Source of the DNA: Octopus vulgaris
Taxonomy: Eukaryota
NCBI GenBank assembly: GCA_951406725.2
Contig: OX597827.1
Location: forward strand, 38,006,001 to 38,070,000
DNA: 64,000 nucleotides
Direction of reading: 5' to 3'
Positions 4,227-64,000 of the stretch are shown piece by piece; the first letter of the stretch is position 1; each line of letters opens with the position of its first letter. The position numbers were made by a program, and so were the translations under genes. The notes below the pieces were generated by a model, which saw nothing but the letters and a program-made list of their open reading frames with translations, had not been told where the DNA came from and did not search any database.

Positions 4227-4259
<33 letters not shown>

Positions 4260-4276
4260 ATGTATGTGTGTGTGTA

Positions 4277-5750: not shown

Positions 5751-5752
5751 AT

Positions 5753-9825: not shown

Positions 9826-9959
9826 CTTTCTTTCAAATTTCTTGTTTTTGTATGATATTATGTAGCAAGTTTTCTGGGGGATCGGCAAGCCATCTGTTTT
9901 TCTGCAGCACCACCACAAATTTTCTTGTTGTCGTACTTCCGCACTCGAGGGGGGAGCCT

Positions 9960-18784: not shown

Positions 18785-18885
18785 GACTGAATGTCAAGAA
18801 CAGATAAAAGGTTTCTATGGCCCCAAGTTTAAGAAGTTCAGTACAGAAGAGGAAGCTCTGGCTTTTGCAGAAATTCCGGCATCAG
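18785..18885 (+). CDS. RNASEH1: RNase H1-like exon: C-terminal half of the hybrid-binding domain
   Basis: tttcag|G TECQEQIKGFYGPKFKKFSTEEEALAFAEIPAS G|gtgaat; compare human [28 protein letters not shown]. Confidence 0.92.
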
Positions 18886-24282: not shown

Positions 24283-24330
<48 letters not shown>

Positions 24331-27300: not shown

Positions 27301-29312
27301 TAGTAGAAGTTGATGATGGTATGAGGGGTTTCTTCCATATGTTGCAGACTGTTAGGTTTGGTTGTGTGAGCAGTGTGGAAGGACATATCTAGGAGAATGG
27401 TTTCAGTCTCACATTTAACTGTCTGACATATGCATACTTGCTTTTCTCCTCCCTCATTCAAATTTTATTCTTTTCTGTGCCAGCTATTTCTCATCTATTT
27501 CCAGTTCATCTGTTGTTCAGACTACATTCTATATTCCACCTTCACACACTGAAAAGTATTATTTGGTTGATAACCAGATGAGAAGAGGAGAGAGTGGAAG
27601 CAAAAAGACTTCCAGTTACTGTGGCTCTAAGTCTCCCTGCTAAGTTTCTTTATAACCACTACTTTTCTTCAAACCTCTCCAACATCAACAGTAGTTCAAC
27701 TACCAATTATTTTACACTGATGACATCTTGCCTCACCTTTCTTTGTACTTATTCTCATCACATTTCTTTCCTCTCTCACTCCTCCTACACCAATGCAGCT
27801 ACTGTTGAGGATGAGCAGTTTTCCATCCCTAAATTTTGCACTAATTTCTGTTGTCACCTGCCCAAATCCATAAAATTAAATATTAAAAAATTATTGATCT
27901 ATTTCTCACCTCAAAGCTTTTACTTCATTATCAGAGAAAAGGGAGGAGAGAGCATCTAAGTAGTAACAACTTGCTAGAAAAAGCTAAATTTCTCTTAAAT
28001 CACACCCTGCTGTCTTGGAATAGGACATACTTCAGAAAAGATGCATGGCCTTGGCTAGAATACCTTTGGTCATAAGTCTGTTCAATTAGGGTTAAAACAA
28101 CAACATTTTTAGAGTTGCACCTCACAGAATGCTCCAACTTACAGCTAATCAAAGCACAACAACCCTTGCCAGTTCTCTGGTACCTCAACTCACTGGTTGA
28201 CACTCTACCAGTTCTACACTGATGACCCTTCACAACACATGTTTCACCTCTGCCACACACATCCTTAACTCTCTTAAGTTTGTTTCAACTACTGAATGAA
28301 CTAGCACAAAGAATTACAAGGTTCCAGATGAACTAGTCTCATTGACAGATTGTCAAAGAACTCTAGAAGAATTAAATGTCATTTTAATCTCTGATTAAAA
28401 ATTTTAGTAGATGCCTAGAAAATTTTTCATGTCTAAAAATGTTAGTAATAACTTTCTATTATTCAAAGAAACAAGAAACTTTTCTTTAATAACCAATTAA
28501 AATAGTCATAAACAGTTGTTATTATATATTGCCTAGCACTTAGAAGAAAAGGGTTTTAAAGAAAATAGTGTATTTGAATGGTTGTTTTTAATTTAAAAAA
28601 ACACTATTTTATGAATGAATCAATGCTTAAAATTTTAGACATGAATTTGAAACAGAAAAGGCAAGATACCTACTTAACTCTTTTGAGAGAAATATTAGTA
28701 TAATTTGTAACTTGATTAACCAAGGAATGGTCAGTACTTAATAACAAACCAGTGGGACTGGTTTATTGTAATTAGAATTATTATTAAAAGAAAGAAAAGT
28801 GTTGGCCTTGTGCGAAAATTAGAAAGAATTATCAATATTAAGGTTCATAGAAATGAATTGTGTTCATGGCCCATGTAGGCCCTCTAAGAGTGGTTAAGTT
28901 GGCTGCTTCAAGTTGATTGCTACAGAAAGAACTAGGGCAGGAAGGGAATTCCAATGGGATGTTATTCAGGGAAGGGAGGGAGTTGGAAATGATTATTGTA
29001 GGCCTGGGAATACAATATGCATGTTTCAAATTGGTACTAATAATGTTTAGAGATTTTTAAAATTATTATTTTATTTAATTTTATAGTTTAATGAGAGTTT
29101 CTCTAATTTCTATTCTCAGTCTCCGCATAGGAGAATAAAAATAGATAGGCTGTGGATAGCCTCCTCCTCTTTACATCAACAAATAAATATAAAAATTATT
29201 TTGATTGTATATTATTTCTATTTCCTAGGTCCATGTGGATAAACATTGTGCTGGATGCAAAGCTGCTGACAATTTGGCCAATAAAGGAGCAAAACTTCCT
29301 CTACCTGAGTAG
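18785..29312 (+). CDS. RNASEH1: RNase H1-like gene, coding exons 2-8; predicted catalytically impaired
   Basis: Seven GT-AG exons with consistent phases: 18785-18885, 20449-20766, 22827-22938, 24903-24957, 25183-25267, 26887-27011, 29229-29312. They encode a hybrid-binding domain, a linker and an RNase H domain. Exon 1 was not found upstream within the window. Confidence 0.93.
19105..19770 (+). mobile_element. CORE SINE with a nested RTE-tail SINE (about 19245-19532)
   Basis: CORE SINE 5' half, an inserted (GAT)n-tailed repeat, then the CORE SINE 3' half. Confidence 0.7.
20449..20766 (+). CDS. RNASEH1: RNase H1-like exon: long connecting region
   Basis: ttaacag|AC...ACT G|gtaatg. Phase 1-1, 318 nt, open (DKTLSSVAKSIQPIVKKLMSG...EEGGFTG); joins the flanking exons in frame. 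Confidence 0.8.
20890..21830 (-). mobile_element. R4/Dong-like (restriction-like endonuclease) non-LTR retrotransposon 3' fragment
   Basis: TEALICTAQEQALRTNY...DKC...ETV..IVSE zinc-knuckle region and GDNRIEEKEKEKVNNYDELKWEIHRLW endonuclease region. Confidence 0.75.
22827..22938 (+). CDS. RNASEH1: RNase H1-like exon: first catalytic strand with Asp->Ala
   Basis: KKLADDDKDVFIAGSCFNNGKPNASAGLGVYWGERE; compare human [29 protein letters not shown]. Confidence 0.92.
24903..24957 (+). CDS. RNASEH1: RNase H1-like exon (catalytic Glu retained)
   Basis: NTSERLGGRQTNIQAEIN; compare human NVGIRLPGRQTNQRAEIH. Confidence 0.92.
25183..25267 (+). CDS. RNASEH1: RNase H1-like exon with TDS->TSS
   Basis: AAIRAVEQAKAKNISNLTINTSSEFIMN; compare human [28 protein letters not shown]. 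Confidence 0.92.
25735..26050 (+). mobile_element. RTE-tail SINE or truncated RTE
   Basis: GTGGCACATAAAAAAGCACCC...GGGCATCCACCTGTA...(GAT)n. Confidence 0.7.
26190..26345 (-). mobile_element. mariner transposase C-terminal remnant
   Basis: DEVRTVLEEYFSSQTSEFWKRG...IVENEGEYILD*. Confidence 0.6.
26887..27011 (+). CDS. RNASEH1: RNase H1-like exon (basic protrusion)
   Basis: MTKWLKTWKKNNWTKSDGKELINKEDLQKLDKKLEGINVKW|gtaagt; compare human [27 protein letters not shown]. Confidence 0.95.
29229..29312 (+). CDS. RNASEH1: RNase H1-like terminal coding exon
   Basis: cctag|VHVDKHCAGCKAADNLANKGAKLPLPE*; compare human [30 protein letters not shown] signals follow near 29347, 29474 and 29573. Confidence 0.92.
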   Translation, partial: VHVDKHCAGCKAADNLANKGAKLPLPE

Positions 29313-31445: not shown

Positions 31446-31617
31446 GGATGAGGTGGGCCTCACAGTGGCGTTGACAAGTTTCTCCTCCCATTCATTCTCC
31501 ACATTCAGCAGTCATTCATAATAACATTTTGAAGCCTCTTTCTTTGCATAATCATTAAATACAAGTGCACCATCATCCATGCAGACACATTTATCTCCTA
31601 TGACGTCACGATTTCTC

Positions 31618-39300: not shown

Positions 39301-39399
39301 AGAAGTCCTTATCTCATCTTGTCTTCCTTTGCTTTTCTTCCATGAACACCTAAAGGCCTTAAGCCAATACCACCCCTACTATATAAGGTAGTGACCATA

Positions 39400-43234: not shown

Positions 43235-44813
43235 CCAAAATTTGAAACCAATATTTAGTCACATCAATGTGGTAAGCTGGCAAAATCATTAGCACACTGA
43301 GCAAAATACTTGGTGGCATCTCACCTATCTTATGTTCTGAGTTCAAATTCTGCCAAATACCCACTTCCCGAAATTGCTGGTCTTGTTCCAAAATTTAAAA
43401 TCAATATTTAGTTACATATGCGTTCAAACCCCATCAAAGTCAACACAGCCTTTTATCTTTCCAGGTTGATAAAATAAAACCAGTCAAATAATGGATTTGA
43501 TTTAATCAACTGTTCTCTGCTAGCAAAATATGTAGCTTTATGCCGCCTGTTAGGAAACATTATTATTAGGATGATGGCATGTCACATTACTTCATTTATG
43601 TCCCCAATTTTGTAAGTTCATGAGCCTTTTCAAGGAATATAAATCTACAGGCTTCAGTCTACTTGGTTGATAAAAATGCATTTTATTCTCTGTTCCCTGG
43701 GTTAAGTGGTAACAGGTAGCTGTAACTGTAAATTTGCTCCAACACAAAACAAAAATTTAACATCTTGGCTATATGTTAACACAGAACAATGGAAATAAAA
43801 CTGTCATAAAAATAGAATTCTGAGAGGATAGCTGCTTTATTTGTGTGAAAGATATAATCATTAAACCAATGATGACAGTAATAATTTCTTGATATTTTAT
43901 TTGTAGACTCTGAAAACATTATCTAACATGTACCTTGCTATTCCAATGAGTGGTGATAATCCATGGGTGTTGAGCAAGGAGCATGTTGTTGTGGCTTTTA
44001 GACTGAGGGTAAAGTATTCTACTGTTTAACTATTTTCTTTTATAATCTTTAACTAATTGTGAAGATAGACTCAGCAGATACCATATTATGCTAAAGAAGA
44101 TTAATTTTGATTGAATATACTTTGAGAAGAGTAAATACTGTAAAAGATATAACATGAATCTTGATTGTAGGGCCTAAATTATCCTAAAAACTTTAGAGTA
44201 ACATGTAACATGCAGTGTTGCATATTTACTCCAAAAGTACATCTATTTTAATCTAGTCAGTAGCTGACTTTCATTTTTGTGGTCCTAAAGTTTGAACTAT
44301 TACATCCCACACCTTCCACTCTTGTAGGATAATTATAGAATACCTTTCAGCAAGATGTGAAAGGCCCTACTACCCATGCAAGGACTTTGAAGCCCAAAGG
44401 ATGGAAAATGTGAAATCTATGGAAAAAAGGGCCATGCAGTGAGCCTCTTTCTCCCAGTAACATGCACTGAGTGATCACTGTTACCTTTTTCGATATGCTT
44501 GTTCCATGACAGATTACTAGAAATTTTTAAATAAAATTTAACCAGCACATCTCAGCTTTTGGTTTAAATTGCTATACTGTGTTACTTCTCATATAGTTTT
44601 TAAGATATGGAAGGATGAAAATTAGGCATTATTTATGCTTGATGATATGTAGATTAATGAAATAAAACATAGCAAAGACTAGAGTTAATATAATCTTTCA
44701 TTTTAAACACCTGTGAGAATACATATTACATGAACCACATTTCACAAACTGCTCTTTTTTCTGCAATTTATTCATGTAAACTTAACTTTTATCATATTAA
44801 GAGTTTCCTTGCA

Positions 44814-45104
44814 ATGTCATTCTTTACAGACTGTTTGGATAAAGAATGTAAGCGCTCTTCAGTAATAGTAGAGTGAAATTTGTTCTTTATAAAGACTATC
44901 TTTGAGGAATTATTTTCTGCTTCGCAGCTCATGATAGACATTGTCAAGTACCTTGTATGTCATTCTTTACAGACTATATGGATAAAGAATTTAAGTGCTC
45001 TTCAGTAATAATAGAGTGAAATTTGTTCTTTATAAAGACTATCTTTGAGGAATTATTTTCTGCTTCACAGCTCATGATAGACATTGACATGTACATTGTA
45101 TGTC
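44814..45104. repeat. 143-bp tandem duplication
   Basis: ATGTCATTCTTTACAGACT... starts at 44814 and 44957; ATGTC recurs at 45100. Confidence 0.9.
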
Positions 45105-46109
45105 CTTGTAGATGAACACAGCCAAGTGTATGCACATATTTATCTAAAGTATCTCAGATCAAGAATCTTTTGAACATCTTACAAATTTTTGCTGTGCCAT
45201 TAACAGATTGGATTTTTTTTGTGCAGATCCCTAGATACATAGCCTAATGCACTTATGATGATATGTAAAAATGAAAATTTATAGCCTAGATTCAAGAGCT
45301 ATATATTTTGCATTAGTTTATCATAAATCTTACCTTTCACCAGAACGTTTGAGGCCACATTCACATCTACATGCCTCGTGTAATCCCTTTATGTATGAAA
45401 AGGAATAAACCCTGTATTTCAACAATTAGTCCAAATAATAGATATACTATCTAGCATATTCATTAGGTCAATTAATACAATTACAGTAATATTGTTTGTT
45501 CTCTTATTTTCCTTTTAATTCTCTTTCTGTTTCTGAAGGGTGTTGAAGTAGCTGAAGAAGTCATCACTCTGCCTGATAAAATAATTACAGAACCTGAGGA
45601 AATAGATATACAATTGAAAGTAAGCTTGTGTTTTCAAGTTACTTCTAGAAGATCACCGACAATTTTATTGTTGTTATTTATATATCTTGTCTGTATTTCT
45701 CTACTGTTACTCTATCTCTACTAAAACAATAGTGAAAACTAAGTTTTACTCTCAATTTTGCCTTTTCTGTTTCATTACCTGTAATACATGCATTGACTTC
45801 TTATATTAACTGGATGTATTAAAGCCAATGATGGAGACTCTTCATGATCACCCAGTATGCCAGAAATAGTAAAACCTTTCTCAAATCTTACCTTATCATC
45901 TAAAAAACTTGAAGAAGGCTACATTGGATAATGAAGTCCTAGATGCTCTATGCTTGAAGAGAATAATGATCATGACTGGAATACCATTAATTATAGGTCT
46001 GGCCTAGGGCTAAACAATAACTGGATGCATTGTCAGAGACTTGAATTGGCTTAATATTAAGCCAGTTGTTGAACCAAACATGCTGTTTAAAGAAATGCAT
46101 GTACTTTTA

Positions 46110-46151
<42 letters not shown>

Positions 46152-46510
46152 GTACACACCAGATACCTGTGACTATATTTACTTCTTTACATTTCAGATG
46201 AATGGTAAAGAAGAGGTGACGGTGAAATGCCTCATTATTTTGAAACATAAAGATCCTTCGAAAGACGTTATTCCTACCAACTTACCAACCACGTTAAAAA
46301 GACAAAAGGAGCACAGACAAATAAATACATAACGATTTACTCCTCACACAATTTCTTCAATTACAATTTACCTAGCATTTTTAAGAGTAGAATGCATCGG
46401 GTCATGCCAGGTCCAGTTTTTAAAATTTAAACTCCAATTAAGCAAAATTTACAGAAAACTCAATATTTTAACATTTCACTCCGAAAGCATTGATGTACAT
46501 GTGTGCGTGC

Positions 46511-46514
<4 letters not shown>

Positions 46515-46561
<47 letters not shown>
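46515..46561. repeat. (GT)n microsatellite
   Basis: Direct reading of the sequence. Confidence 0.95.
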
Positions 46562-46564
<3 letters not shown>

Positions 46565-47679
46565 TTGATGGGTTGTGCGACACAGAAAGTGTCGTGTGTA
46601 AGTGAAGTGCTTTTGTTAGTGTGTGTAAAGAGACAGAGAGTGAAAGACAGAAATAACTGAACTTTTTTTATTCACTTTTTGTAGTGAGTGACTGAGAGAG
46701 AAAAGAGAGAGAGAGAGGTTATGTATGTATATATGTATGTATGGCTTCAGTGACACACACACACAAAAACACATACCTACGTACACCTAAAGCACGCACA
46801 CGCACACACACACACAAGCGGAGCGCGAACTTCAAAATTTTGGTAGTATTGATTTGCGAGCGTACTTCTAAGCGCGCGTAATTGAAAGTTTTCACTATGA
46901 TATCATCACGTGCGAAAAAATTCGAAGGGTTTTGAACAATTGAGATACAGATGTCACGCCTGTATTGAAACCATTGCTAAGCTGCCGTAATTGCTTAATT
47001 AAGACTTTGTTTAAATTGAAAGGGGCAAATATGTGACGAGGTTGAAAAAAATACCCCAGAAATAAAAATGTACTGCTGGTATTTATATAATTCACTACTA
47101 TTTTGCTACAATGTCATGAAAAAGAAAAAATTTAGGTATGTACAACATATATTATACATTTTTTCTATTCATTCAACGAAAATAAAAAAATCGAATTCGC
47201 CATCCCCTTTTCCCCGTTCGCGTTTGTGTAAAAAAAATTATTATTTAAGTTTTAAAAATTATTTACTTTGTTCAAAAAATATTAATATTAATTAATTTTC
47301 AAGAATTATTTAATTTTATTCTGTAAAATAGTAATTAATTCATTTATCTGTAAATCCGCGAGGTTGTTACTCAGGCACCTAGAAATAGCAGCCAGATTTT
47401 TATATTCTAAATAATTTGCAATTTCAAAAAATATATTAATTTTGCGTTATTTAATTTGATAAATTCTACGGAATAATTTTGCGCGTTATATACGTTCGCG
47501 TTTCTGTAAAAAAAAGTAATTATTTAAGGGCGATCGAGTATCGAGTACCTACGTCTGGCTCGCACGCGCGAATCCGCGTGTGCGCAACCGGGACCACTCT
47601 GCGATACAAGTACCCATATATACATCCATACATACATGTGTGTGTGTGTCTATGTATGTGTATTAATGTGTGTGTGTTA

Positions 47680-48037
47680 TCTCTATATAAAGCTAAAGTT
47701 GTCTGTGTGCGCCACGTTTGGTAACCTTCAACTAACACTATCTCCTCCGAGACCCTGCGGCGCAAGTCGACCAAAATTGAGAGTATGATAGAAGAAGGGT
47801 TGCTCTTCCTTCCGTAGAACATAAAATTCAAATCGGACCATGTTAACACCAAAAATTATTTACATCAAAAAGATGCTTTTTTCTATGAAAATCCCTATTT
47901 TTTACGATTTTTTCACTGCTGTGTCGCCACTTTTCGGTGTATTTCGACCAGAAAAATGTTCACAAAATTTTTACTCTTCAAAATTACAATTCCAGCGGGT
48001 CGAAACAAACCCGAGCAACGCCGGGCGATACTGCTAG
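47680..48037 (+). mobile_element. Non-autonomous Helitron
   Basis: A|TCTCTATATAAAG 5' end, subterminal hairpin CCCGAGCAACGCCGGG, CTAG|T 3' end, no TSD. Confidence 0.85.
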
Positions 48038-49689: not shown

Positions 49690-50199
49690 GCATAACTTGC
49701 AAGAAGTGTTTCGCACCCTGGATGATGCTTTTATGGAGCAGCATGGTGTTGCTAGAGTGTGTGCCACAGAGGTAACTCTTGAGCTTTCCACTTACTGGGA
49801 CAACAAGCCTACACAGGACGGATCTGTTCAGTTTCGCTCACAGATTAAAAAATTATCTTTTTTAACTAAACAGTTTGAAACTTCGTATACTGGTGTAATT
49901 TCTCATGCTGAACACGGTTCACTTTCAACATTTTTGACAAAATTTCGTATCTTAGAAGTTATTTCGTGTTAAAGTTGTCCTATTTGTGTAATTTTAACCA
50001 ATCAAAGAGGATATGAAAAGTGTAAACAATTACAACTAAGAACCATAAGAAGGTAGTAAAAATATTTTTTTATTTCGAGATTTGGAAATTAACTAAATTT
50101 GGGACATTTAGCGTGTCCCTGAAAGATCAGTACGGGACAGGAGACAAAATTATCAAATATGGGCCACATCCCTTATATAAGGGACGTCTGGCAACCCTA
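49690..50199 (+). mobile_element. Degenerate hAT-like DNA transposon remnant with one TIR
   Basis: GGGACGTCTGGCAACCCTA (reverse complement TAGGGTTGCCAGACGTCCC) is a hAT-type terminus. A decayed ATEVTL..FH transposase-like stretch lies upstream. Confidence 0.45.
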
Positions 50200-50504
50200 A
50201 CCTAATGTTATTTTGCACGCTATTGACTCATCACCAATAGCCACATATGGTCAGATCTCTTTACGCCTTGACATAAATCTTCGTCGAGATTTTCAGTGGG
50301 TTTTTGTCATTGCTGACATTCCGCATCCTATTTTAGGAGCGGATTTTCTAAATAACTTTGATTTATTGGTAGATGTCAGACGTCGGAGGCTAGTCGACAG
50401 TTCAACTACACTCTCCACGCCGACCAGAGAATCTACCGATTCAGCTCTTAGCCCGACATTTATTGTTTCTACATCTGGAGATGTTTTTCATTCTCTTTTG
50501 GCTT

Positions 50505-53500
50505 TGTAGTGATGCTGCTGTGTATGGTTCAGCGCGCATGCGTAGAATGGGACTACTTCCGGGTGGCCACCGGAAGTCTTCCCCATGCGCATGTGCGGGA
50601 AACTGACCCCTAAAATACCGTCCACTCATTCAGTCTCTCTGGCCCTGATAGCCCTCGTGAACAGACGCGCATTGGCAGTCTCTGAGAACTATGCACTGAC
50701 TTAGCAGCGGACCACATCGAACCACTTCGACCAGCCAACAAGAAGCAGTACAACAGATTCGGCTGTCGGTCCCCCTCAGAAATACGTACACCAGATCTAC
50801 ACCATCACGAGTAATAAAACAACATTTGCTGTCTTTCCCAGATAACCTGACTTCGTCTGTTATATTTAACTAAATTGAATGTGACGGGATCAGATCGGAC
50901 ATCCCTTCAGTGATATCGATTCCAGATCCTGTTACAATTGGTGACCCCGAGTAAAAAAAAAAAGAACAGAAGACGCAGCGAACAGGTTTTGCCAGTTAGC
51001 ACACTGAACACTCAGTTTCATTATCATTTTCTTTTCCTTTCAGGACAGCGAAGGTGCGTACAAACAAAAGTTTTATCCATCGCACTCAGTACACTGAAAA
51101 AAAAAAAACAAAACACACACACACATTATTTTTTTTCTTTTCTGTAGCTTTTGTTTTTCCTTTGTGCACACACACACCTATTTCTTTACTACCCACGAGG
51201 TGCACACACACACACACCAGTACACAAAACACGATTTTTTTTTGGTTTGCTTTGTCGGTTCCACGTGTTCTCCACTTCTCGTTCTTACCTTCTGCCCCTT
51301 TCTGACAGGCGATTTTTCGGACAAACATGGCTGCATCAGGTTTGCCTTCATTCACAGGGGATGCGGGTCTGTGGCTTGCCCATGTGGAGTCGCATTTTGC
51401 CGCACATGCCGTTCCTCCACAGCAGCAGTTGCATCTGCTATATTCGAGTTTGCCTTCCCGACTCGCCACATCGGTCAGGGATCTCATAATGAGTCCCCAC
51501 CCTGACGCCGCATACGCGTCAGTAAAAGCCGAAATCCTCCGCCGCAACACGCGGTCGGAGGAGAGTCAATTTAATGAGCTGATGGCCGACGAACAGTTGG
51601 GGGACAGGACTCCATCCCAGTTCCTGCACCACCTAAGGGAGCTAAGCGGGAACGGAGCAGACGCACCACTCTTGCGGAAGATTTTCTTCTCCAGGTTGCC
51701 TGCCCACGTGCAGACAATGTTGGCCACGGCACTGGAGTCTGTGTCAGTAGACCAGATTGCCACGATGGCCGATAAAATATTAGAATTTTCGGGACCATCT
51801 CCATCGCGAGGCCTGTACGCATGTACAGAGCCCCCTCCGACATTTTCTCCGACACAAAATTCTCTAGCCGAGAGGATCGATGCACTTACGCAGTGAATCA
51901 ATGATCTGTGGCGTGCGATCGGGCGCCGACCTCGCAGTCGTAGTCGCAGTGGCTCTGTTTCTCGTAGTCGGAGTGACTCTGTTTCTCGTTCCGGCTGGTG
52001 CTGGTACCATTCCAAGTATGCCGAAAAGGCAGAACGGTGTACCCAGCCGTGCACTTTCCAGCCCTCGGGAAACTAAATCAGGAGGAGGTGAGCACGTCAC
52101 CTTCTTTCTCGTTTCCCAAAAATCGTGCGTTCTTTGTAAAAGATCTTGTGTCGAAGAAATTCTTCATGGTGGACACTGGCTCTTGTTGCAGCATCTGGCC
52201 CCTTCGTCTGACTGCAGACAAGCCCAAGCGCTCTTCAATTGTCTTGCATGCCATTGACTCGTCTCCCATAACCACCTTCGGTCAGATTTCGCTGCGCCTC
52301 GACATCAACCTTCGTCGAGATTTTCAATGGGTTTTCGTCATCGCTGACATCCCGCATCCTATTCTCGGCGCTGATTTCTTGGATAGATTTAATCTATTGG
52401 TGGATGTCAGGCGTCGGAGGCTTCTTAACAGCACGACGTCGCTCTCGACGCCGACTGGGAGTTCCACCAATGCGGTCCTTAGCCCGACATTCTTTGTTGC
52501 CACCTCTGGAGACGTTTTTCACTCTCTTTTGGCTTCATTTCCGGAGCTATTGGATATTGCCTTTCAACCGGAAAAGCCTACCCACTCGACCCTTCATTTT
52601 ATCACCACCACTGGGCCGCCTGTTTTTTCGCGCCCACGGCGCCTTGCGCCTGACCGTCTAAAGACGGCTAGGGCCGAGTTTGAGCACATGCTTCAACTTG
52701 GCCTTATACGCCCCTCCACCAGCCCATGGGCGTCTCCCCTTCATTTGGCGCGAAAGGGCGAGTCTGATTTTCGCCCGGTAGGAGACTATCGACGCCTCAA
52801 TGCCGTAACAATAGCCGACAGGTATCCAATCAGAATTATACAGGACTTTACGGCAAATCTCCATGGTTGTACCATTTTTTCGAAGGTCGACCTTATACGC
52901 GCGTACCATCAAATACCGGTCAACCCAGCCGACGTTCCGAAAACTACGATCACTACCCCTTTTGGGTGTTTTGAGTTTTTGTATATGAGTTTCGGTTTGC
53001 GGAATGCTACCAGCACTTTCCAGCGTTTCATTGATGAGGTTGTCCGCGGTATTTATTTTGTGTTTGCCAATGTCGATGATATACACATTGCGAGCGACAC
53101 ACGTGAAAATCATCTCCAGCACCTTTCTCAGTTTTTTCAGCGTCTTCGCGCTTATAGTATACGTATAAATCCCGACAAGTGTGTTTTCGGACGCTCTTCT
53201 CTAGATTTTCTAGGCCATCATATTGATTCGAGTGGAATCAGCCCTCTGTCGTCAAAGGTCGATGCCATTCAACGCATCGCACCTCCCACTTCCTTGCGCC
53301 AGCTCAGGCATTATCTAGGGATGATCAATTTCTACAGACGTTTTATTCCCGGTTGTGCAGATAAGCTACTTCCTCTCACCAGGCTATTAAAGGACACTCC
53401 TAGAAAGGACGGTCAAGTCACCCTCTCTGTTGAGGCAGTGACAGACTTTGAGTCCATTAAGAAGGAGCTGGCTTCTGTTTCTTTGCTTGCACATCCGGTT

Positions 53501-55865
53501 CCTGGTGCTTCTCTCTCTTTGACTGTAGACGCATCGGACACTGCGATTGGCGCTGTGTTACAACACACAGTGGATGATCATATTCGACCTCTGGCTTTCA
53601 TTTCCCGTCAACTGCAACCAGCTGAACGACGATACAGCACCTTTGATCGTAAGCTCCTAGCGATCTATCTATCGGTTCGTCATTTCCAGCATCAACTTGA
53701 AGGGCGAGATTTTGTGATCTATACGGATCACAAGCCCCTTACGTTTGCCCTGTGTTCAAAAACGGACAAACTCTCACCTCGTGCCTTCCGGCACCTGGAT
53801 TTATCTCTCAATTTACTAGTAACATTCGACACATACCTGGAAAAGAGAACGTTCCTGCTGACGCTCTCTCTCGCCTTCTAGTCTGCACCCTTTCGTCTCC
53901 TGCTGCTATCGACTTAAGTGCCATCTCGCAGGAGTAGCCACCTTTGGCGTCGTTAGACTTAACTTCGCCCAGGTTCTCCTGTTGCCAGTTTTCCCACCCT
54001 CCGCTTCCGTCAGCCGAAGGCACCATTCTCGGTGATACTTCCACTGGTTCTCCCAGGCCACTCGTGCCTGAGAATCATCAACGCTCAGTGTTTGAAGCAC
54101 TGCACTCCTTATCACATCCTGGCATCGCTGCCACCCTTAAGCTGATCACTGCTCGGTTTTTCTGGCCGAATATGCGTCGCACTATTACTTCTTGGACACG
54201 CACCTGCTCCAAGTGTCAACGGTCCAAGATTCAACGGCACGTTCGTGCCCCGCTTGGACATTTTCGCCCCTACGGAGGCCCGTTTTCGCCATGTCCACAT
54301 CGATCTGGTTGGACCATGGCATGTGAGTCGCGGGTTTTCTTATCTGTTAACTTGTGTCGATCGTTTCTCCCGCTGGACAGAAGCCATTCCGATAGCAGAC
54401 ATTTCTACTGAGACTGTTGCGCGAGCCTTCGTTTCGAACCGGATTTCCCGTTTCGGAGTTCCGTCCAGATTGACTACAGATTGTGGACGTCAGTTTGAAG
54501 CTTCGCTATTTCGCGAATTGTCGCGCATTTTAGGTGTGCATCATATCCACACTACCAGCTATCATCCAGCGTCTAATGGATTAGTTGAACGGTTCCATAG
54601 ACAGCTTAAGGCCGCTCTTCGTGCCTCTTCAGATCCACAGTCCTGGATTGAATTTCTGCCAATTGTGCTTCTCGGTTGTCGCACTGCTGTCAAGGCAGAC
54701 CTGGGATTTTCTTCTGCAGAGCTACTGTATGGTACCACTCTGGCATTGCCTGGTACGATGTTGGTGCCAGACACTTCCCAGCCCCATGATCCGGCGACCT
54801 ATGTCGCCAGACTGCGTTCCTATTTTTCGAATCTTCCACCCATGGTTCCCAGGAAACAATCTCCACCATCCCATCTCTCACCGGATATGGACACTTGGTC
54901 GCATGTTTTTGTTCGGAACGACTCTGTCAAGGGACCACGTGTTTCTCCTTATAAAAGACCTTTCCGTGTGCTTTCTCGAACACCTAAGGTTTTCACCATT
55001 GAAATAAATGGTCATTCGGAGACTGTTTCCGTGGACCGACTGAAGAAAGCATACTTTGAGGCGTCTTCATCTTTTGATGACAACGTTGCCACACCCACCT
55101 ATGCACCTTTAACAACACCTTCACCAGCGCCGACACCTTCACCTGCACAAACACATTCACCTGCACAGACACCTTTGCCTTCACCGGCTCCCACAACACC
55201 ACCTTCGCCGTCAACGGTGCCCCGAGCACACCGTATGTTACAAGATCGGGCAGAACAGTGCATTGGCCAAAGAAACTCTCAAAGACAATTTATATTTGAC
55301 TTTCTTTCAAATTTCTTGTTTTTTGTAGTATATTGTGTACCAAATCTTCTGGGGGATCGGCAAGCCGTCTGTTTTTCTGCAGCACCACTACAAATTTTCT
55401 TGTTTTCGTACTTCCGCACTCGAGGGGGAGCCATGTAGTGATGCTGCTGTGTAAGGTTCAGCGCGCATGCGTAGAATGGGACTACTTCCGGGTGGCCACC
55501 GGAAGTCTTCCCCATGCGCATGTGCGGGAAACTGACCCTTAAAACACCGTCCACTCACTCAGTCTCTCTGGCCCTGGCAGCCCTCGTGAACAGACGCGCA
55601 TTGGCAGTCTCTGAGAACTACGCAGCGACTTAGCAGCGGACCACATCGAACCACTTCGACCAGCCAACAAGAAGCAGTACAACAGATTCGGCTGTCGGTC
55701 CCCCTCAGAAATACGTACACCAGATCTACACCATCACGAGTAATAAAACAACATTTGCTGTCTTTCCCAGATAACCTGACTTCGTCGGTTATATTTAACT
55801 AAATTGAATGTGACGGGATCGGATCGGACACCCCTTCAGTGATACCGATTCCAGATCCTGTTACA
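50505..55865 (+). mobile_element. Ty3/Gypsy LTR retrotransposon copy B (full length, defective)
   Basis: 432-bp LTRs at 50505-50936 and 55434-55865; TSD GCTT; PBS TGGTGACCCCGA; PPT GAGGGGGAG; gag from 51327 with a premature TGA at 51894; pol with YVDD->NVDD and frameshifts. Confidence 0.97.
52067..52110 (+). promoter_or_regulatory. -1 programmed ribosomal frameshift signal (gag-pol)
   Basis: Slippery heptamer G GGA AAC directly before the gag TAA, followed by the stem-loop AGGAGGAGGTGA-GCACG-TCACCTTCTTTCT. pol is in the -1 frame. Confidence 0.75.
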
Positions 55866-57939
55866 GCTTCTTTTCCAGAGCTACTTGATATTACCTTTAA
55901 AATGGCAAAACCCGTACACTCGACACTCCATTTTATTACAACTACTGGGCCGCCTGTTTTTTCGCGCCTACGGCGTCTTGCACCTGACCGTCTTAAAACG
56001 GCTAAGGCTGAGTTTGAGCATATGCTCCAGCTTGGTCTGATACGCCCATCCCCCAGTCCATGGGCTTCACCCCTTCATTTAGTTCGAAAAGGGGATACAG
56101 ATTTTCGTCCGGTGGGAGATTATCGGCGTCTAAATTCCGGACAGATATCCAATTATGAATCTCAATGACTTTTCAGCAAATCTCCATGGCTGTACCATTT
56201 TTTCTAAGGTTGACCTCATACGTGCTTATCATCAAATACCGGTCAACCCAGACGATGTTCCTAAAACGGCAATTACCACTCCTTTCGGTTGTTTCGAATT
56301 TCTATACATGAGTTTTGGTTTGCGGAACGCCTGTAGTACGCTCCAACGTTTTATAGATGAAGTTGTTCGTGGACTTGATTTTGTTTTCGCGTATGTCGAT
56401 GATATTCTCATCGAAAGTGATACACATGAAAATCATCTCCAGCACTTGTCTAAGCTTTTTCAGCGTCTTCGCGACTATGGTGTTCGCATTAATCCAGACA
56501 AGTTTTTTGGGGGCAATCATCTCTTGATTTTCTCGGTCATTATATTGATTCGAGTAGAATCAAACCACTCTCGTCTAAAGTCGATGCAATTCAGCGCATC
56601 GCACCACCTTCTTCTTTGCGTCAACTTCGCCATTTTTTGGGTATAGTTAATTTCTATCGACGCTTCATAAACCGGTGTGCGGACAAGTTGTTTCCTTTAA
56701 CGCAGATGCTAAAGGGCAATTCTAAAAAGGACGCCCGTCTTACTCTTTCAGCTGAAGCACTGTCTGCCTTTGAGTTAGTTAAAAAGGAACTAGCTTCAGT
56801 TCCTGTTTTAGCACATCCGGCTCCTGATGCTCCACTTACTTTATCTGTGGACGCATCAGATTCTGCAGTTGGCGCTGTCTTGCAGCACACCATAGATGGT
56901 GAAACTAAACCTTTGGCTTTCTTCTCTTGCCAGCTAATTGGATTTCTAGGTATGGTGTACCGTCCAGTTTAACCACAGATCGTGGTCGAGAATTCGAAGC
57001 GGTTTTATTTCGTGAGTAATCACGAATCCTGGGGATGCATCATATACGCACCACTAGTTACCATCCCGCTTCTAATGGGATGGTGGAGCGTTTCCACAGG
57101 CAACTTAAGGCCGCGTTGCGTGCCTCGCCGAATCCACAGTCGTGGACTGAATTTCTTCCTATCGTCCTGCTTGGATGTCGGACTGCGATTAAAACAGATC
57201 TTGGTTTTTCTTCTGCCGAGCTCTTGTATGGTACCACACTGGCATTGCCTGGTACGATGTTGGTGCCAGACAAGTCACAGTTTCTTAATTTAGAGTCTTA
57301 TGTTGCTCGACTATGCAGATATTTTTCTGCCCTTCCTCCAATGGGCCCTCGACACCAAAATCCTCCTTCTAATGTGCCATCAGATCTTGAGTCTTGGACG
57401 CATGTTATTGTTCGTGATGATTCTGTCAAAGGACCTCTTGTTTCTCCTTATAAAGGACCTTTTCGTGTGATTTCCCGAACGCCGAAAGTGTTAAAACTTG
57501 ACATTAACGGTCGTTCGGAGACCGTCTCCGTAGACCGTCTTAAAAGGGCATATTTTGAGGTGTCCACATCTTTTGATGACCCCACTTCCACAACCATCGT
57601 TGAACCTTCACATGCACCTTTGACAACACCACCATTCACACATGCACCTTTGACAACACCACCATTTACACATGCACCTTTATCAACACCAACATCGTCG
57701 TCGCAGCCCGCATCGAACAAACCTTATGTTATGAGGTCAGGCAGAACTGTTCACTGGCCAAAGAAACTTTCAAAGACGATTTATATTTAACATTCTCAAT
57801 TGACTATATTGTAGATTGCTATAAGATACAAAGGGAGGCAGATAAAATCTGCCTTTTATAATAAGAGATCCCTTGGTTCTGGGCGTGCAAGGCTGAACTT
57901 TAACGCTGTAAGATTTTACAATGTTCAACTGCAAACAGA

Positions 57940-58300
57940 ACTGGTCAAAATGGCGTCCTTAGGGAGCGAAGATAATACGCGTCTGCTTCAATGAAAGGCT
58001 TTCTGCTGTCTGCTGACTGCTATGTGTCCCTCTGGACGCTCAGTTGGTCAACGTTTTACGCTCCTTTGCCTCTTTGTTAAGGTTCGCCTTCCCCTGCCAT
58101 TCAACTAATGCCACGACAGCAAATCTGTTCTTCCGGTCATCGCGCATGCGCGAGAGGGCCCTTCCCTTCCGCCTTCGCGTATGCGCGAGAGAGCGTTGCG
58201 CGCGCGCACCGTTGTATTGATCACTACAAATCTATTTACCACGCTCTGTATTTAGACACCCACACATTTTCCGTTTTGTTGCTAGGAAACCATTAACTGT
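57940..58300. promoter_or_regulatory. CpG-rich housekeeping-type promoter, repeated in each array unit
   Basis: YY1-like CAAAATGGCG, ETS CTTCCGG, NRF1 GCGCATGCGC and RFX X-box-like GTTGCTAGGAAAC, upstream of an ATG exon. Confidence 0.6.
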
Positions 58301-58416
58301 TGCAGATAGTGTTCTATTTTTATAAGACATCAGTGCTAGTTGCTGGCCTCTTAAGACGCCCGACCGCTATTTTAAATACACTCAAGCCTGCTTGCTGCTT
58401 AGATAATTTTATCGTC

Positions 58417-58469
58417 ATGTCTGACTATCCTGTGAAAAAAGGACGTGAACCCGGGGTACATGAGACACG
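58417..58469 (+). pseudogene. RNASEH1: RNase H1 first coding exon, copy 1 (degenerate)
   Basis: ATG..MSDYPVKKGREPGVHET-CG|gtgaga matches the hybrid-binding-domain start (F/Y)YAVxxGRxxGV(Y/F)xxW. Its phase-2 donor fits the exon at 18785. Confidence 0.8.
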
Positions 58470-58617
58470 GTGAGACAATATTATTATTAATAATTATTTG
58501 CTCATATAATTTGCCATTAATAGCCGACGAGAATGTATCGTGGCTCTCCACTCCGATATTCGAAACTTTGAGTACTATAATGACAACCTTTTACTGTTTG
58601 TTCTAAATTATAATATA

Positions 58618-59002
58618 CTAGCAGTATCGCCCGGCGTTGCTCGGGTTTGTAAGAGAAATAACTATATAAGCATTTTTAGAGAGAAATAGCAAAACAATGC
58701 ATTAAAAATGAAAAGAAAATTAAGGTAAATTTTTTTTTTAAATCGTTGACACATCGTAGATATTTCTAGAGAGTTACTTCCCTTATATAATAGCGAAAAA
58801 ATGCATTAAAATGGAAAAATATGATGGTAAATTTTTTTTAAATCGTAGACTCATCGTAGACGCGCGCTAATACGCAGAAGGGCTCGATATGACTCACGAC
58901 TATAAGATACCCGGTTTTGGTTACACTGCACCGCAAAATGTGGGAGTAGTTAGGAATCTAAATCGTAGGAGACAGACACACAACCTTTCTTTTATATATA
59001 AA
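58618..59002 (-). mobile_element. Non-autonomous Helitron (also at about 61063-61457 and 63003-63397)
   Basis: A|CTAGCAGTATCGCCCGGCGTTGCTCGGG is the reverse complement of the hairpin + CTAG end seen at 48010-48037. Confidence 0.8.
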
Positions 59003-59514
59003 CTAGCAGTATCGCCCGGCGTTGCTCGGGTTTGTAAGGGAAAAAACTATATAAGCATTTTTAGAGAGTTACTTCCCTTATAGATGCCAATTCGGGCTTT
59101 CTTAGCCATTTTTGTTTTGGTGTCTTCAAGCCATGAAGTCGTTGTTCTGAAAGAACGCTGGTTTCCTTCACAACGCATTACGACGTTGATTTCTTTACAC
59201 TCCCTTCCCCACAGCTTCACGAGGGAGGGAAGGGGGCGAAGCAAACAGGTGCAGCTGTGAGCGTGGACGCCAACTCCGCCGCCATCGACACACGATGCAT
59301 TTTATGTATTAAAATGGAATAAAAAATGATGTTAAATTATTTTTAAAATCGTAGACTCATCGTTGACGCGGGCTAATAGGCAGACGGGCTCGATATGAAT
59401 CACGACTATAAGATACCCGAATTTGGTTAAATTGCACCGCAAAATGTGGGAGGAGTTAGGAATCTAAATCGAAGGGGACAGACACTCACACAACTAGAGT
59501 TTTATATATATAGA
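59003..59514 (-). mobile_element. Non-autonomous Helitron inserted in array unit 1 only
   Basis: TC 5' end at 59514, CTAG 3' end at 59003, inserted between A and T. The empty site is present in units 2 and 3. Confidence 0.9.
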
Positions 59515-60861
59515 TATTTTCGTCCTAAAAAACTTTGTATGGATTGAATGGTTACCTCTATGGAAATATATACACGCACATTATACATACATGTGTGTAT
59601 AGATGAATATATAAATACATTTAAATATCTATATACACTTTTGGGCGATCTTTCTGTTTCTTAGAGATAACTTTATCCCGTCAGTTTCGCTCCAAAATTT
59701 ACAGGGACATGTAGAATGAGGTGACGATGCTCGTGGGCTACGTTAGAAATCCATATCTTAAAAGGTGTGGTTGCTAGGGGCCATCTTCCTCACTCACCCT
59801 ATTTCCTCCAGTACCCTGTCACTCCTCTTCATTTGACAGGCCACTACGGTTATTTAATATAAAGTCTTCCTCAAATCACTCTCTCGCTATTTACTCTCTT
59901 CCAACAACATTTTCACTCACTCTTATCTCTTAGCTTCCCATACATTTTACTCATGTATCTATCAGCGTCATAGACAGAAACAAATATTACATCGCCATCG
60001 CCATCGCATTCTATTGTCTACCTGTCAACACACACACAGTGAATTACTTTCACTTTATTCGTAGCACACTGTGTGTGTGCGTACGCGTGTGCTGTAGCCC
60101 ACACTAAGAAAAGCATTTGACATACACACCACAATGTGAGTTTTCTCTAAATTTTGCTTAATTGGGGTTGAAATTTTAAAAACTGGACCTGGCACGACCC
60201 GATGCATTCTACTCTTAAAAATGCTAGGTAAATTGTAATTGAAGAAATCCTATATTGTAGATTTCTATAAGATACAAAGGGAGGCAGATAAAATCTGCCT
60301 TTTATAATAAGAGATCCCTTGGTTCTGGGCGTGCAAGGCTGAACTTTAACGCTGTAAGATTTTACAATGTTCAACTGCAAACAGAACTGGTCAAAATGGC
60401 GTCCTTAGGGAGCGAAGATAATACGCGTCTGCTTCAATGAAAGGCTTTCTGCTGTCTGCTGACTGCTATGTGTCCCTCTGGACGCTCAGTTGGTCAACGT
60501 TTTACGCTCCCTTGCCTCTTTGTTAAGGTTCGCCTTCCCCTGCCATTCAACTAATGCCACGACAGTAAATCTGTTCTTCCGGTCATCGCGTTGCGCGAGA
60601 GGGCCCTTCCCTTCCGCCTTCGCGTATGCGCGAGAGAGCGTTTCGCGCGCGCACCGTTGTATTGATCACTACAAATCTATTTACCACGCTCTGTATTTAG
60701 ACACACACACATTTTCCGTTTTGTTGCTAGGAAACCATTAACTGTTGCAGATAATGTTCTATTTTTATAAGACATCAGTGCTAGTTGCTGGCCTCTTAAG
60801 ACGCCCGACCGCTATTTTAAATACACTCAAGCCTGCTTGCTGCTTAGATAATTTTATCGTC

Positions 60862-60914
60862 ATGTCTGACTATCCTGTGAAAAAAGGACGTGAACCCGGG
60901 GTACATGAGACACG
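60862..60914 (+). pseudogene. RNASEH1: RNase H1 first coding exon, copy 2
   Basis: Identical to 58417-58469. Confidence 0.8.
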
Positions 60915-62801
60915 GTGAGACAATATTATTATTAATAATTATTTGCACATATAATTTGCCATTAATAGCCGACGAGAATGTATCGTGGCTCTCCACTCCG
61001 ATATTCGAAACTTTGAGTACTATAATGACAACCTTTTACTGTTTGTTCTAAATTATAATATACTAGCAGTATCGCCCGGCGTTGCTCGGGTTTGTAAGGG
61101 AAATAACTATATAAGCATTTTTAGAGTGTTATAGCCAAAAAATAGCAAAAGAATGCATTAAAAATGGAAAAAAAATTAAGGTAAATTTTTTTTTAAATCG
61201 TTGACACATCGTAGATATTTTTAGAGAGTTATTTCCCTTATATAATAGCGAAAAAATGCATTAAAATGGAAAAATATGATGGTAAATTTTTTTTAAATCG
61301 TAGACTCATCGTAGACGCGCGCTAATACCCAGAAGGGCTCGATATGACTCACGACTATAAGATACCCGGTTTTGGTTACACTGCACCGCAAAATGTGGGA
61401 GTAGTTAGGAATCTAAATCGTAGGAGACAGACACACAACCTTTCTTTTATATATAAATATTTTCGTCCTAAAAGACTTTGTATGGATTGAATGGTTACCT
61501 CTATGGAAATATATACACGCACATTATACATACATGTGTGTATAGATGAATATATAAATACATTTAAATATCTATATACACTTTTGGGCGAACTTTCTGT
61601 TTCTTAGAGATAACTTTATCCCGTCCGATTCGCTCCAAAATTTACAGGGACATGTAGAATGAGGTGACGATGCTCGTGGGCTACCTTAGAAATCCCTATC
61701 TTAAAAGGTGTGGTTGCTAGGGGCCATCTTCCTCACTCACCCTATTTCCTCCAGTACCCTGTCACTCCTCTTCATTTGACAGGCCACTACGGTTATTTAA
61801 TGTAAAGTCTTCCTCAAATCACTCTCTCGCTATTTACTCCTATCTTCCAAGAACATTTTCACTCACACTTATCTCTTAGCTTCCCATACATTTTACTCAT
61901 GTATCTATCAGCGTCATAGACAGAAACAAATATTACATCGCCATCGCATTCTATTGTCTACCTGTCAACACACATACAGTGAATTACTTTCACTTTATTC
62001 GTAGCACACTGTGTGTGTGCGTATGCGTGTGCTGTAGCCCACACTAAGAAAAGCATTTGACATACACACCACAATGTGAGTTTTCTCTAAATTTTGCTTA
62101 ATTGGGGTTGAAATTTTAAAAACTGGACCTGGCACGACCCGATGCATTCTACTCTTAAAAATGCTAGGTAAATTGTAATTGAAGAAATCCTATATTGTAG
62201 ATTTCTATAAGATACAAAGGGAGGCAGATAAAATCTGCCTTTTATAATAAGAGATCCCTTGGTTCTGGGCGTGCAAGGCTGAACTTTAACGCTGTAAGAT
62301 TTTACAATGTTCAACTGCAAACAGAACTGGTCAAAATGGCGTCCTTAGGGAGCGAAGATAATACGCGTCTGCTTCAATGAAAGGCTTTCTGCTGTCTGCT
62401 GACTGCTATGTGTCCCTCTGGACGCTCAGTTGGTCAACGTTTTACGCTCCCTTGCCTCTTTGTTAAGGTTCGCCTTCCCCTGCCATTCAACTAATGCCAC
62501 GACAGTAAATCTGTTCTTCCGGTCATCGCGTTGCGCGAGAGGGCCCTTCCCTTCCGCCTTCGCGTATGCGCGAGAGAGCGTTTCGCGCGCGCACCGTTGT
62601 ATTGATCACTACAAATCTATTTACCACGCTCTGTATTTAGACACACACACATTTTCCGTTTTGTTGCTAGGAAACCATTAACTGTTGCAGATAATGTTCT
62701 ATTTTTATAAGACATCAGTGCTAGTTGCTGGCCTCTTAAGACGCCCGACCGCTATTTTAAATACACTCAAGCCTGCTTGCTGCTTAGATAATTTTATCGT
62801 C

Positions 62802-62854
62802 ATGTCTGACTATCCTGTGAAAAAAGGACGTGAACCCGGGGTACATGAGACACG
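62802..62854 (+). pseudogene. RNASEH1: RNase H1 first coding exon, copy 3
   Basis: Identical to 58417-58469. Confidence 0.8.
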
Positions 62855-64000
62855 GTGAGACAATATTATTATTAATAATTATTTGCACATATAATTTGCC
62901 ATTAATAGCCGACGAGAATGTATCGTGGCTCTCCACTCCGATATTCGAAACTTTGAGTACTATAATGACAACCTTTTACTGTTTGTTCTAAATTATAATA
63001 TACTAGCAGTATCGCCCGGCGTTGCTCGGGTTTGTAAGGGAAATAACTATATAAGCATTTTTAGAGTGTTATAGCCAAAAAATAGCAAAAGAATGCATTA
63101 AAAATGGAAAAAAAATTAAGGTAAATTTTTTTTTAAATCGTTGACACATCGTAGATATTTTTAGAGAGTTATTTCCCTTATATAATAGCGAAAAAATGCA
63201 TTAAAATGGAAAAATATGATGGTAAATTTTTTTAAAATCGTAGACTCATCGTAGACGCGCGCTAATACCCAGAAGGGCTCGATATGACTCACGACTATAA
63301 GATACCCGGTTTTGGTTACACTGCACCGCAAAATGTGGGAGTAGTTAGGAATCTAAATCGTAGGAGACAGACACACAACCTTTCTTTTATATATAAATAT
63401 TTTCGTCCTAAAAGACTTTGTATGGATTGAATGGTTACCTCTATGGAAATATATACACGCACATTATACATACATGTGTGTATAGATGAATATATAAATA
63501 CATTTAAATATCTATATACACTTTTGGGCGAACTTTCTGTTTCTTAGAGATAACTTTATCCCGTCCGATTCGCTCCAAAATTTACAGGGACATGTAGAAT
63601 GAGGTGACGATGCTCGTGGGCTACCTTAGAAATCCCTATCTTAAAAGGTGTGGTTGCTAGGGGCCATCTTCCTCACTCACCCTATTTCCTCCAGTACCCT
63701 GTCACTCCTCTTCATTTGACAGGCCACTACGGTTATTTAATGTAAAGTCTTCCTCAAATCACTCTCTCGCTATTTACTCCTATCTTCCAAGAACATTTTC
63801 ACTCACACTTATCTCTTAGCTTCCCATACATTTTACTCATGTATCTATCAGCGTCATAGACAGAAACAAATATTACATCGCCATCGCATTCTATTGTCTA
63901 CCTGTCAACACACATACAGTGAATTACTTTCACTTTATTCGTAGCACACTGTGTGTGTGCGTATGCGTGTGCTGTAGCCCACACTAAGAAAAGCATTTGA

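What the first reader, a model, noticed from the sequence alone, without database searches (positions are those of the whole stretch)
57804..64000. Tandem array amplifying an RNase H1 promoter and first exon together with Helitron ends
Seen: each ~1.94-kb unit contains a CpG-rich promoter (YY1/ETS/NRF1/RFX-like motifs), an ATG exon MSDYPVKKGREPGVHET(R) with a phase-2 GT donor matching exon 2 at 18785, a minus-strand Helitron 3' end (hairpin + CTAG), and a minus-strand Helitron-like 5' end (A|TCTCTTATTATAAAA at 57868, 60314, 62254). Known: Helitrons capture flanking gene pieces by terminator read-through and form head-to-tail arrays. Inference: rolling-circle capture, or unequal crossing-over, multiplied the 5' end of an RNase H1 gene. 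The result is a bank of alternative promoters/first exons for a downstream paralog, or a source of decoy or regulatory transcripts.
Basis: partly seen in the sequence, partly recalled or inferred. Interest (0 to 1): 0.75.

Follow-up and report, generated by a model that had tools for sequence, protein, structure and literature searches.

The report
Helitron-bounded repeats of RNase H1 promoter
In the common octopus, the promoter and first exon of a probably non-cutting RNase H1 gene copy have been repeated head to tail between transposon copies, most likely by ordinary unequal crossing-over rather than by transposon capture.

Summary
The array is in the sequence: three units of 2446, 1940 and >=1811 bp. 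Each is ~748 bp of host DNA (CpG-rich promoter, RNase H1 exon 1, intron start) plus one complete, composite, non-autonomous Helitron on the minus strand. The window is Octopus vulgaris.

The exon is not exon 1 of the gene at 18785. It is identical (18/18 aa) to the N-terminus of an O. sinensis paralog, whose O. vulgaris counterpart probably lies downstream. These paralogs lack catalytic D145/D210 equivalents; this exon has also lost the mitochondrial ATG and W43.

Unequal crossing-over between two same-orientation Helitron insertions fits better than read-through capture:
- the host piece ends at an A|T site, without CTRR;
- the leftmost Helitron is a different copy, split at nt 65/67 by an inversion (rest at 46351-48037);
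- host DNA is about a thousandfold rarer than the Helitron in public contigs.

All three exons encode the same peptide, so the array can change dose, not diversity. Array length, per-unit transcription and the reality of U2/U3 are untested. The cluster of dead RNase H1 paralogs is the more interesting by-product.

The parts
57804..57868 (-). nt 1-65 of upstream Helitron copy C1 (5' end TCTC..., small hairpin), broken at 57804 against a retrotransposon fragment
   Evidence: 98.5% to nt 1-65 of the array element; high-copy depth
57869..58617 (+). Host segment H1: CpG-rich, probably bidirectional promoter, exon 1, start of intron 1
58142..58151 (.). NRF1-like palindrome, intact only in unit 1
   Evidence: factor name recalled
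58278..58290 (+). RFX-like site (also 60723, 62663)
   Evidence: factor name recalled
58324..58416 (+). Remnant of the N-terminal presequence, first ATG changed to AAG (29 of 31 residues as in parent P0003)
58417..58469 (+). Coding part of exon 1, unit 1 (GT donor at 58470)
   Evidence: 18/18 to P0005
58618..60314 (-). Composite Helitron of unit 1 (3' hairpin+CTAG at 58618, 5' TC at 60314)
59003..59514 (-). Extra small Helitron inserted only in unit 1, at the 5' end of the small Helitron 58618-59002
   Evidence: the form without it is a joint in 3 of 4 runs
60315..61062 (+). Host segment H2 (exon ATG 60862, donor 60915)
61063..62254 (-). Complete 1192-bp composite non-autonomous Helitron (inner small Helitron 61063-61457)
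62255..63002 (+). Host segment H3 (exon ATG 62802, donor 62855)
63003..64000 (-). Third Helitron copy, cut by the window end
46351..48037 (+). Rest of Helitron C1 (from nt 67), inverted; different interior; ends hairpin+CTAG|T
18785..29312 (+). Exons 2-8 of another RNase H1-like paralog (P0001), D145 and D210 equivalents substituted; own exon 1 not in window
43910..46332 (+). Last three exons of mitochondrial ribosomal protein L9 (residues 138-243), part of the duplicated cassette
50213..57803 (+). Old LTR-retrotransposon fragment with a younger full element (50505-55865) nested in it; broken at the array edge

Best explanation
A local tandem duplication of the promoter and first exon of an RNase H1 paralog, made by unequal crossing-over between two independent, same-orientation insertions of one Helitron family lying ~750 bp apart. 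Inferred steps: (1) an RNase H1/MRPL9 cassette was duplicated several times in the O. vulgaris-O. sinensis lineage, and the copies lost catalytic residues; (2) Helitron C1 inserted at an A|T site upstream of one copy's promoter and C2 in intron 1; (3) misaligned exchange in their near-identical first ~180 nt gave C-H-C-H-C, and further exchanges extended it (U2 = U3 but for 1 nt); (4) later, or at the cassette junction, an inversion split C1, and another Helitron entered unit 1. Shown: the anatomy, the homologies and the residue losses. Inferred: order of events, recombination mechanism, link to the downstream gene. Likely effect: extra copies of one start site for a nuclear-only, non-cutting RNase H1-like protein, probably near-neutral or a dose change.
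For: Unit = host piece + one complete element. The host piece ends GGGA|TC, the canonical A|T target (PMC4778049 passages). A contig of run X16 (RNA by guess) aligns over 57868-58087, including that T, and runs on to the left without the Helitron. Element nt 1-65 lie at 57868-57804 (-) and nt 67-178 at 46351-46462 (+), complementary to within 1 nt and inverted; beyond nt 178 this copy is only 62-85% like the array element, so it is an independent insertion. Summed contig depth in X1 and X2 is 1e5-3.8e6 over the Helitron part but about 480-1430 in 5 of 7 host bins. Clean head-to-tail Helitron joints without the host piece exist in 3 of 4 runs (57865->58617). Paralog identity: 18/18 to P0005; P0006 is 79/81 to P0013 with a shared 6-aa gap; accession order. 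Helitrons prefer promoters and CpG islands (PMC4778049), so two nearby insertions are plausible.
Against: No crossover point could be placed: the 5' ends are too alike (1 difference in 65, 4 in 112). Experimental read-through ends also lack hairpins and may be non-CTAG (PMC4778049 section 11), so the missing terminator is weak evidence. Single host contigs have depth 475 (X1) and 586 (X2) against lowest listed values of about 23 and 12.5, a weak hint of some 10-45 copies that could be tandem, in other cassettes or dispersed (the tool warns that depth is no copy number). Two host bins (58085-58258) reach 2000-8400, unexplained. The inversion is reconstructed, not seen in reads. Sequence beyond 64000 was not available. 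The X16 contig's left part was not seen.
Confidence: 0.6

Rival explanations
1. Helitron read-through capture: the intron-1 element bypassed its terminator, took 748 bp of promoter and exon, circularised and reinserted as a rolling-circle multimer.
For: The geometry is right: the host piece lies 3' of the terminator and each unit joins the next 5' end exactly. Helraiser transduces flanks in about 12% of events and forms head-to-tail circles; HelibatN3 carries a promoter, short coding exon and donor (PMC4778049). Recently active Helitron families are reported in O. vulgaris (PMC13282606).
Against: The junction reads as an A|T insertion site. The leftmost element has a different interior, so two insertions existed. 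The host piece is about a thousandfold rarer than the element. The array appears to sit at the paralog's own 5' end.
Confidence: 0.12
2. Transposase-driven amplification between two existing insertions: replication starts at C2's 5' end, reads through and is released at C1's 5' nick site, giving the same product as recombination.
For: Explains the exact host|TC junction and the two-insertion anatomy.
Against: No precedent found in the papers read; homologous exchange needs no extra assumption; sequence cannot separate the two here.
Confidence: 0.1
3. Assembly artefact: U3 (or U2 and U3) is a false duplicate, or U1 and U2 are two haplotypes placed in tandem.
For: U2 and U3 differ at 1 of 1811 nt, at a homopolymer edge. 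U1/U2 divergence (0.9-2.1%) is of a size that could be allelic. The five U2/U3-specific host changes are not in the dominant X1 contig, nor the three it spans in the X2 contig. No listed contig spans a whole unit.
Against: U1 differs from U2 by 26 substitutions, 5 small gaps and a 512-bp insertion. Host-segment contigs look multi-copy in two independent runs. Contigs drop rare variants.
Confidence: 0.13
4. The array is an orphan 5' remnant, with no working gene downstream and no spliced product.
For: The O. vulgaris model P0006 lacks exons 1-2. Paralogs change many conserved sites (23-40 of ~123 in the catalytic domain). U2/U3 have lost the NRF1-like site.
Against: O. sinensis models join this exact exon to exon 2 in 5 isoforms, and a W-retaining variant in a sixth model. 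X16 covers 58259-58519 at 92-194 and drops to 1 after it, though parent and paralog cannot be told apart there.
Confidence: 0.05

Closest known systems
Repeat-mediated tandem duplication by unequal crossing-over (e.g. Alu-Alu partial gene duplications; IS-flanked amplification) - recalled
   Same: Unique segment flanked by same-orientation copies of a dispersed repeat; repeat-unique-repeat units; one divergent edge unit and near-identical neighbours.
   Different: The repeats are non-autonomous Helitrons; the unit holds only a promoter and first exon; the outer repeat is split by an inversion.
HelibatN3 (NUBPL promoter capture) in bats, PMC4778049 (passages and one section read)
   Same: Promoter, short coding exon and splice donor travelling with Helitron ends.
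   Different: There the host piece is inside the element and spread widely; here it is outside both ends, on the opposite strand, local and low-copy.
Helitron tandem arrays (Xenopus, PMC12001565, passages read)
   Same: Head-to-tail Helitron units up to ~2 kb, 2-7 copies.
   Different: Those monomers are Helitron-derived; here 748 bp of gene sequence separates each 3' end from the next 5' end.
Variable first-exon clusters (protocadherin, UGT1A) - recalled
   Same: Tandem promoter/first-exon units upstream of shared exons.
   Different: Units here are identical in coding sequence and very recent, so they give no isoform diversity.
Eukaryotic RNase H1
   Same: Cauli_VI plus RNase_H domains, two in-frame starts in the parent, E 2.7e-48 to human RNase H1.
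   Different: The paralogs lack D145 and D210 equivalents (some also E186); this exon lacks the first ATG and has F28D, A30P, W43R.

Membership tests
Non-autonomous Helitron (element 61063-62254) | 5' TC terminus | tested here: met
Non-autonomous Helitron (element 61063-62254) | 3' hairpin followed by CTRR | tested here: met
   GC-rich stem 9-11 nt before CTAG, -4.5 kcal/mol
Non-autonomous Helitron (element 61063-62254) | A|T target, no target duplication | tested here: met
   A before the 5' TC and T after CTAG
Non-autonomous Helitron (element 61063-62254) | Dispersed high copy number, head-to-tail joints | tested here: met
   depth 1e5-3.8e6 in X1 and X2; joints 57865->58617/59002
Non-autonomous Helitron (element 61063-62254) | Matching autonomous RepHel partner | not testable with these tools
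   no genome held
Helitron gene capture | Host fragment enclosed between the element's own 5' and 3' ends | tested here: not met
   host piece lies between a 3' end and the next 5' end
Helitron gene capture | New 3' terminus (CTRR-like) after the captured piece | tested here: not met
   ends GGGA; weak test, since experimental new ends vary
Helitron gene capture | Copies at unlinked sites | tested here: inconclusive
   low but multi-copy depth; no chimeric protein among 2 hits of 26 candidates, a weak search that also did not list P0005
Repeat-mediated unequal crossing-over | Two independent same-orientation repeats flanking the unit | tested here: met
   split C1 with different interior; rests on the inversion reconstruction
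Repeat-mediated unequal crossing-over | Hybrid repeat with a crossover point | tested here: inconclusive
   too few diagnostic sites in nt 1-178
Active RNase H1 | D145, E186, D210 equivalents | tested here: not met
   P0013 A/V/S, P0006 A/E/S, P0001 A/E/S; P0004 and P0008 D/E/D (PMC5737507 passage)
Active RNase H1 | Intact hybrid-binding domain (W43, K59, K60) | tested here: not met
   W43R in the array exon; K59/K60 kept in P0013 (PMC10639055 passages)
Variable first-exon cluster | Different first exons spliced to shared exons | tested here: not met
   coding parts identical in 3 of 3
Variable first-exon cluster | Each promoter transcribed | not testable with these tools
   only contigs available

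The most novel reading that the evidence does not exclude
The O. vulgaris lineage has turned duplicated RNase H1 genes into a family of nuclear-only, catalytically dead R-loop binders or decoys with a remodelled hybrid-binding domain (6 of 18 residues changed against 2 of 31 in the now non-coding presequence; post hoc p=0.039). Their dose is raised by amplification of the promoter and exon 1 between two Helitron ends, possibly driven by the Helitron transposase itself.
Probability: 0.12. Interest if true: 0.7.

Novelty: new member of a known kind. Interest (0 to 1): 0.35.

Why it matters
As a mechanism it is an ordinary repeat-mediated duplication. It is also a caution: a promoter and exon between Helitron ends can mimic capture without being captured. 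The by-product matters more. O. vulgaris and O. sinensis carry several intact-frame RNase H1 paralogs without catalytic aspartates, where my search returned one protein each for O. bimaculoides and Argonauta. Two literature searches found no paper on octopus RNase H1. If these proteins are expressed and still bind hybrids, they would be natural equivalents of the engineered dead RNase H1 used as an R-loop probe, and could shield R-loops from the active enzyme.

Tried and rejected
No whole genome is held, so array length, downstream exons and dispersed copies could not be read. No RNA holder listed on record as RNA; X14 and X16 are RNA by guess only. X14 shows no cover at 58346-58432; a hole proves nothing. 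No loose end at the 58470 donor and no go-back joint across the unit junction was among the rows shown (955 loose ends and 79 joints were not shown). No other exon-1-like sequence in the window (next best 27/53 nt). Pfam does not detect the 48-aa exon on its own. The protein search with the exon gave only P0003 and P0010. Minus-strand frames of 57869-58240 are all interrupted by stops, so the divergent transcript was not identified. Tandem Repeats Finder is limited to periods of 500 and does not report the array. Earlier findings: none by place, words or sequence. Paper searches for dead RNase H1 paralog families and promoter/first-exon duplication by transposons gave no direct precedent in the listings. 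Rejected: that the array exon is exon 1 of the 18785 gene; that the CTAG end and TC end are unrelated orphan ends. Supplements were not read; the repeat library of PMC13282606 may already hold these Helitron families.
Full report
Observation. Self-comparison shows direct copies starting at 57804, 60250 and 62190. Unit 1 is 2446 bp, unit 2 1940 bp, unit 3 is cut at 1811 bp. Units 2 and 3 differ at 1 of 1811 positions. Units 1 and 2 differ by 0.9% in the host part, 2.1% and 1.4% in the Helitron parts, and by a 512-bp extra Helitron in unit 1. The ATG exon, its GT donors and the Helitron-type ends are at the stated coordinates. The upstream 550 bp has CpG o/e 1.07-1.11 against 0.58 for the window. 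An RFX-like site is in all three units, the NRF1-like palindrome only in unit 1; the factor names are recalled.

Which gene. The exon at 20449-20766 is 100% identical to P0001, an Octopus vulgaris RNase H1-like model, and exons 2-8 of that model map to 18785-29312. P0001 starts with another first exon, 11/17 identical to the array exon, that is not in the window. The array exon is 18/18 identical to the start of O. sinensis P0005 and its four sister isoforms; a sixth model, P0012, has the same exon with W in place of R. The O. vulgaris model closest to P0013 is P0006 (79/81 over the linker, shared 6-residue gap), which lacks exons 1-2. Accessions run 839 (parent-type 5' end), 840 (window gene), 841 (MRPL9 fragment, in the window), 842 (P0006), 845 (full MRPL9). 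I infer that the array is the 5' end of the next paralog downstream; this was not seen directly. O. sinensis has 99-residue MRPL9 fragments on contigs of the same three lengths as its RNase H1-like models, which points to a repeated RNase H1/MRPL9 cassette.

What the exon encodes. The 93 nt before the ATG match the parental N-terminal extension at 29 of 31 residues, with the first ATG read as AAG. In human, deleting the presequence removes mitochondrial localisation (PMC5737507, passage); two starts are also reported in Drosophila (PMC6433063, search listing only). So the paralog should be nuclear only (inference). Against the parent it changes 6 of 18 coding residues, including the equivalents of F28, A30 and W43; W43A compromises hybrid binding (PMC10639055, passages). 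D145, E186 and D210 are essential in human. P0004 and P0008 keep all three; P0001 and P0006 read A/E/S and P0013 A/V/S. The paralogs also change 23-40 of about 123 conserved catalytic-domain sites, which fits relaxed selection as well as a new role. The excess of change in the coding part over the presequence remnant is marginal and post hoc (p=0.039).

Anatomy of the unit. Read on the minus strand, 62254-61063 is one 1192-bp element: A|TC start, an inner small Helitron with its own 5' end, hairpin, CTAG|T. The 748-bp host piece lies between one element's 3' end and the next element's 5' end. In four public runs laid on 57650-60249, the Helitron part has summed depth 1e5-3.8e6 in X1 and X2. 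Five of seven host bins have about 480-1430 and two have 2000-8400. Joints from 57865 to 58617 (3 of 4 runs) show head-to-tail Helitron junctions without the host piece elsewhere. The joint 59001-59514 (3 of 4 runs) shows that the composite without the extra insertion is a common form. Single host contigs have depth 475 and 586 against lowest listed depths near 23 and 12.5; the tool warns that this is no copy number, so I take it only as a hint of more copies than three. Their dominant type is unit-1-like: the X1 contig differs from unit 1 at 2 sites and lacks the five changes of units 2 and 3.

Mechanism. The leftmost element keeps only nt 1-65 (57868-57804). Nt 67-178 lie at 46351-46462 on the other strand, followed by a related but different interior (62-85% over nt 182-340) and a different small Helitron ending CTAG|T at 48037. 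Breaks that complement each other to 1 nt in opposite orientation indicate one element split by an inversion of 46351-57803, probably with loss of flanks, since the retrotransposon at 57803 is cut there. If so, two independent same-orientation insertions flanked the promoter and exon. A 1953-nt contig of X16 aligns at 57868-58087 and runs on leftwards without the Helitron, including the T expected of an A|T target; it may be a divergent transcript of the parental promoter, but its left part was not seen. Two repeats with ~180 nt of near identity around a unique segment are the standard substrate for unequal crossing-over (established knowledge). Helraiser prefers promoters and CpG islands (PMC4778049, passages), and eight Helitron families are recently active in this species (PMC13282606, first of three parts read). 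I put this route at 0.6.

Rivals. Read-through capture has the right geometry and precedent (PMC4778049), and new ends need no hairpin, so it is not excluded (0.12). It does not explain the different interior of the leftmost copy. A transposase-driven version using both insertions gives the same product (0.10). Assembly error remains possible for units 2 and 3 (0.13), since no genome or long read was available. An orphan remnant is less likely (0.05).

Function. X16 covers 58259-58519 at 92-194 and falls to 1 beyond, as a spliced first exon would, but it is RNA by guess and cannot be assigned to parent, paralog or unit. Since the coding nt are identical in all units, splicing from any donor gives the same protein; only dose or timing could change, and units 2 and 3 have lost the NRF1-like site.

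Comparison and verdict. The elements pass the Helitron tests run here. The unit fails the tests for captured sequence and for a variable-exon cluster, and works like a repeat-mediated tandem duplication. Helitron arrays of similar size are known (PMC12001565, passages). Searches for octopus or cephalopod RNase H1 and for dead RNase H1 expansions listed nothing on this locus; the library lacks most subscription papers. New member of a known kind; interest 0.35, mostly for the dead paralog cluster.

Noticed in passing
18785-29312 and proteins P0001-P0016: Cluster of RNase H1 paralogs with open frames but substituted catalytic residues in O. vulgaris and O. sinensis; one intact protein each returned for O. 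bimaculoides and Argonauta. Several annotated 'isoforms' look like mixes of paralog exons (P0003 ends with the window gene's exons).
   Followed up: partly
43910-46332: Only the last three exons of MRPL9 are present; the inversion break lies 18 nt after the stop. O. sinensis has three 99-aa fragment models.
   Followed up: partly
46351-57803: Probable 11.4-kb inversion that splits a Helitron at nt 65/67; may mark the junction of the duplicated cassette.
   Followed up: partly
57868-58087: A 1953-nt contig of run X16 aligns here and runs on leftwards; possible divergent transcript of the parental promoter, unidentified.
   Followed up: partly
5337-10374 and 50505-55865: Two full LTR retrotransposons, 94% alike, LTR pairs 97-98% identical; the second is nested in an older relative (72-78%). 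Two of their LTRs carry the NRF1-like palindrome.
   Followed up: partly
2940-3394: 455-bp near-perfect inverted repeat (97%) flanked by TA runs; could be a MITE-like element or an assembly fold-back.
   Followed up: no
44814-45104: Two tandem copies of a 143-bp unit (93%) in an MRPL9 intron.
   Followed up: no
39395-42556: Broken reverse-transcriptase element, probably a LINE, with older fragments at 31039-32257.
   Followed up: no
58511-58617: The intron piece next to the Helitron 3' end is itself a moderately repeated sequence (about 12 differences in 103 nt to other loci), so the unique host part is nearer 640 bp.
   Followed up: no
58085-58258: Promoter core has higher contig depth in X1 and X2 (2000-8400) than the rest of the host piece; unexplained.
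   Followed up: no
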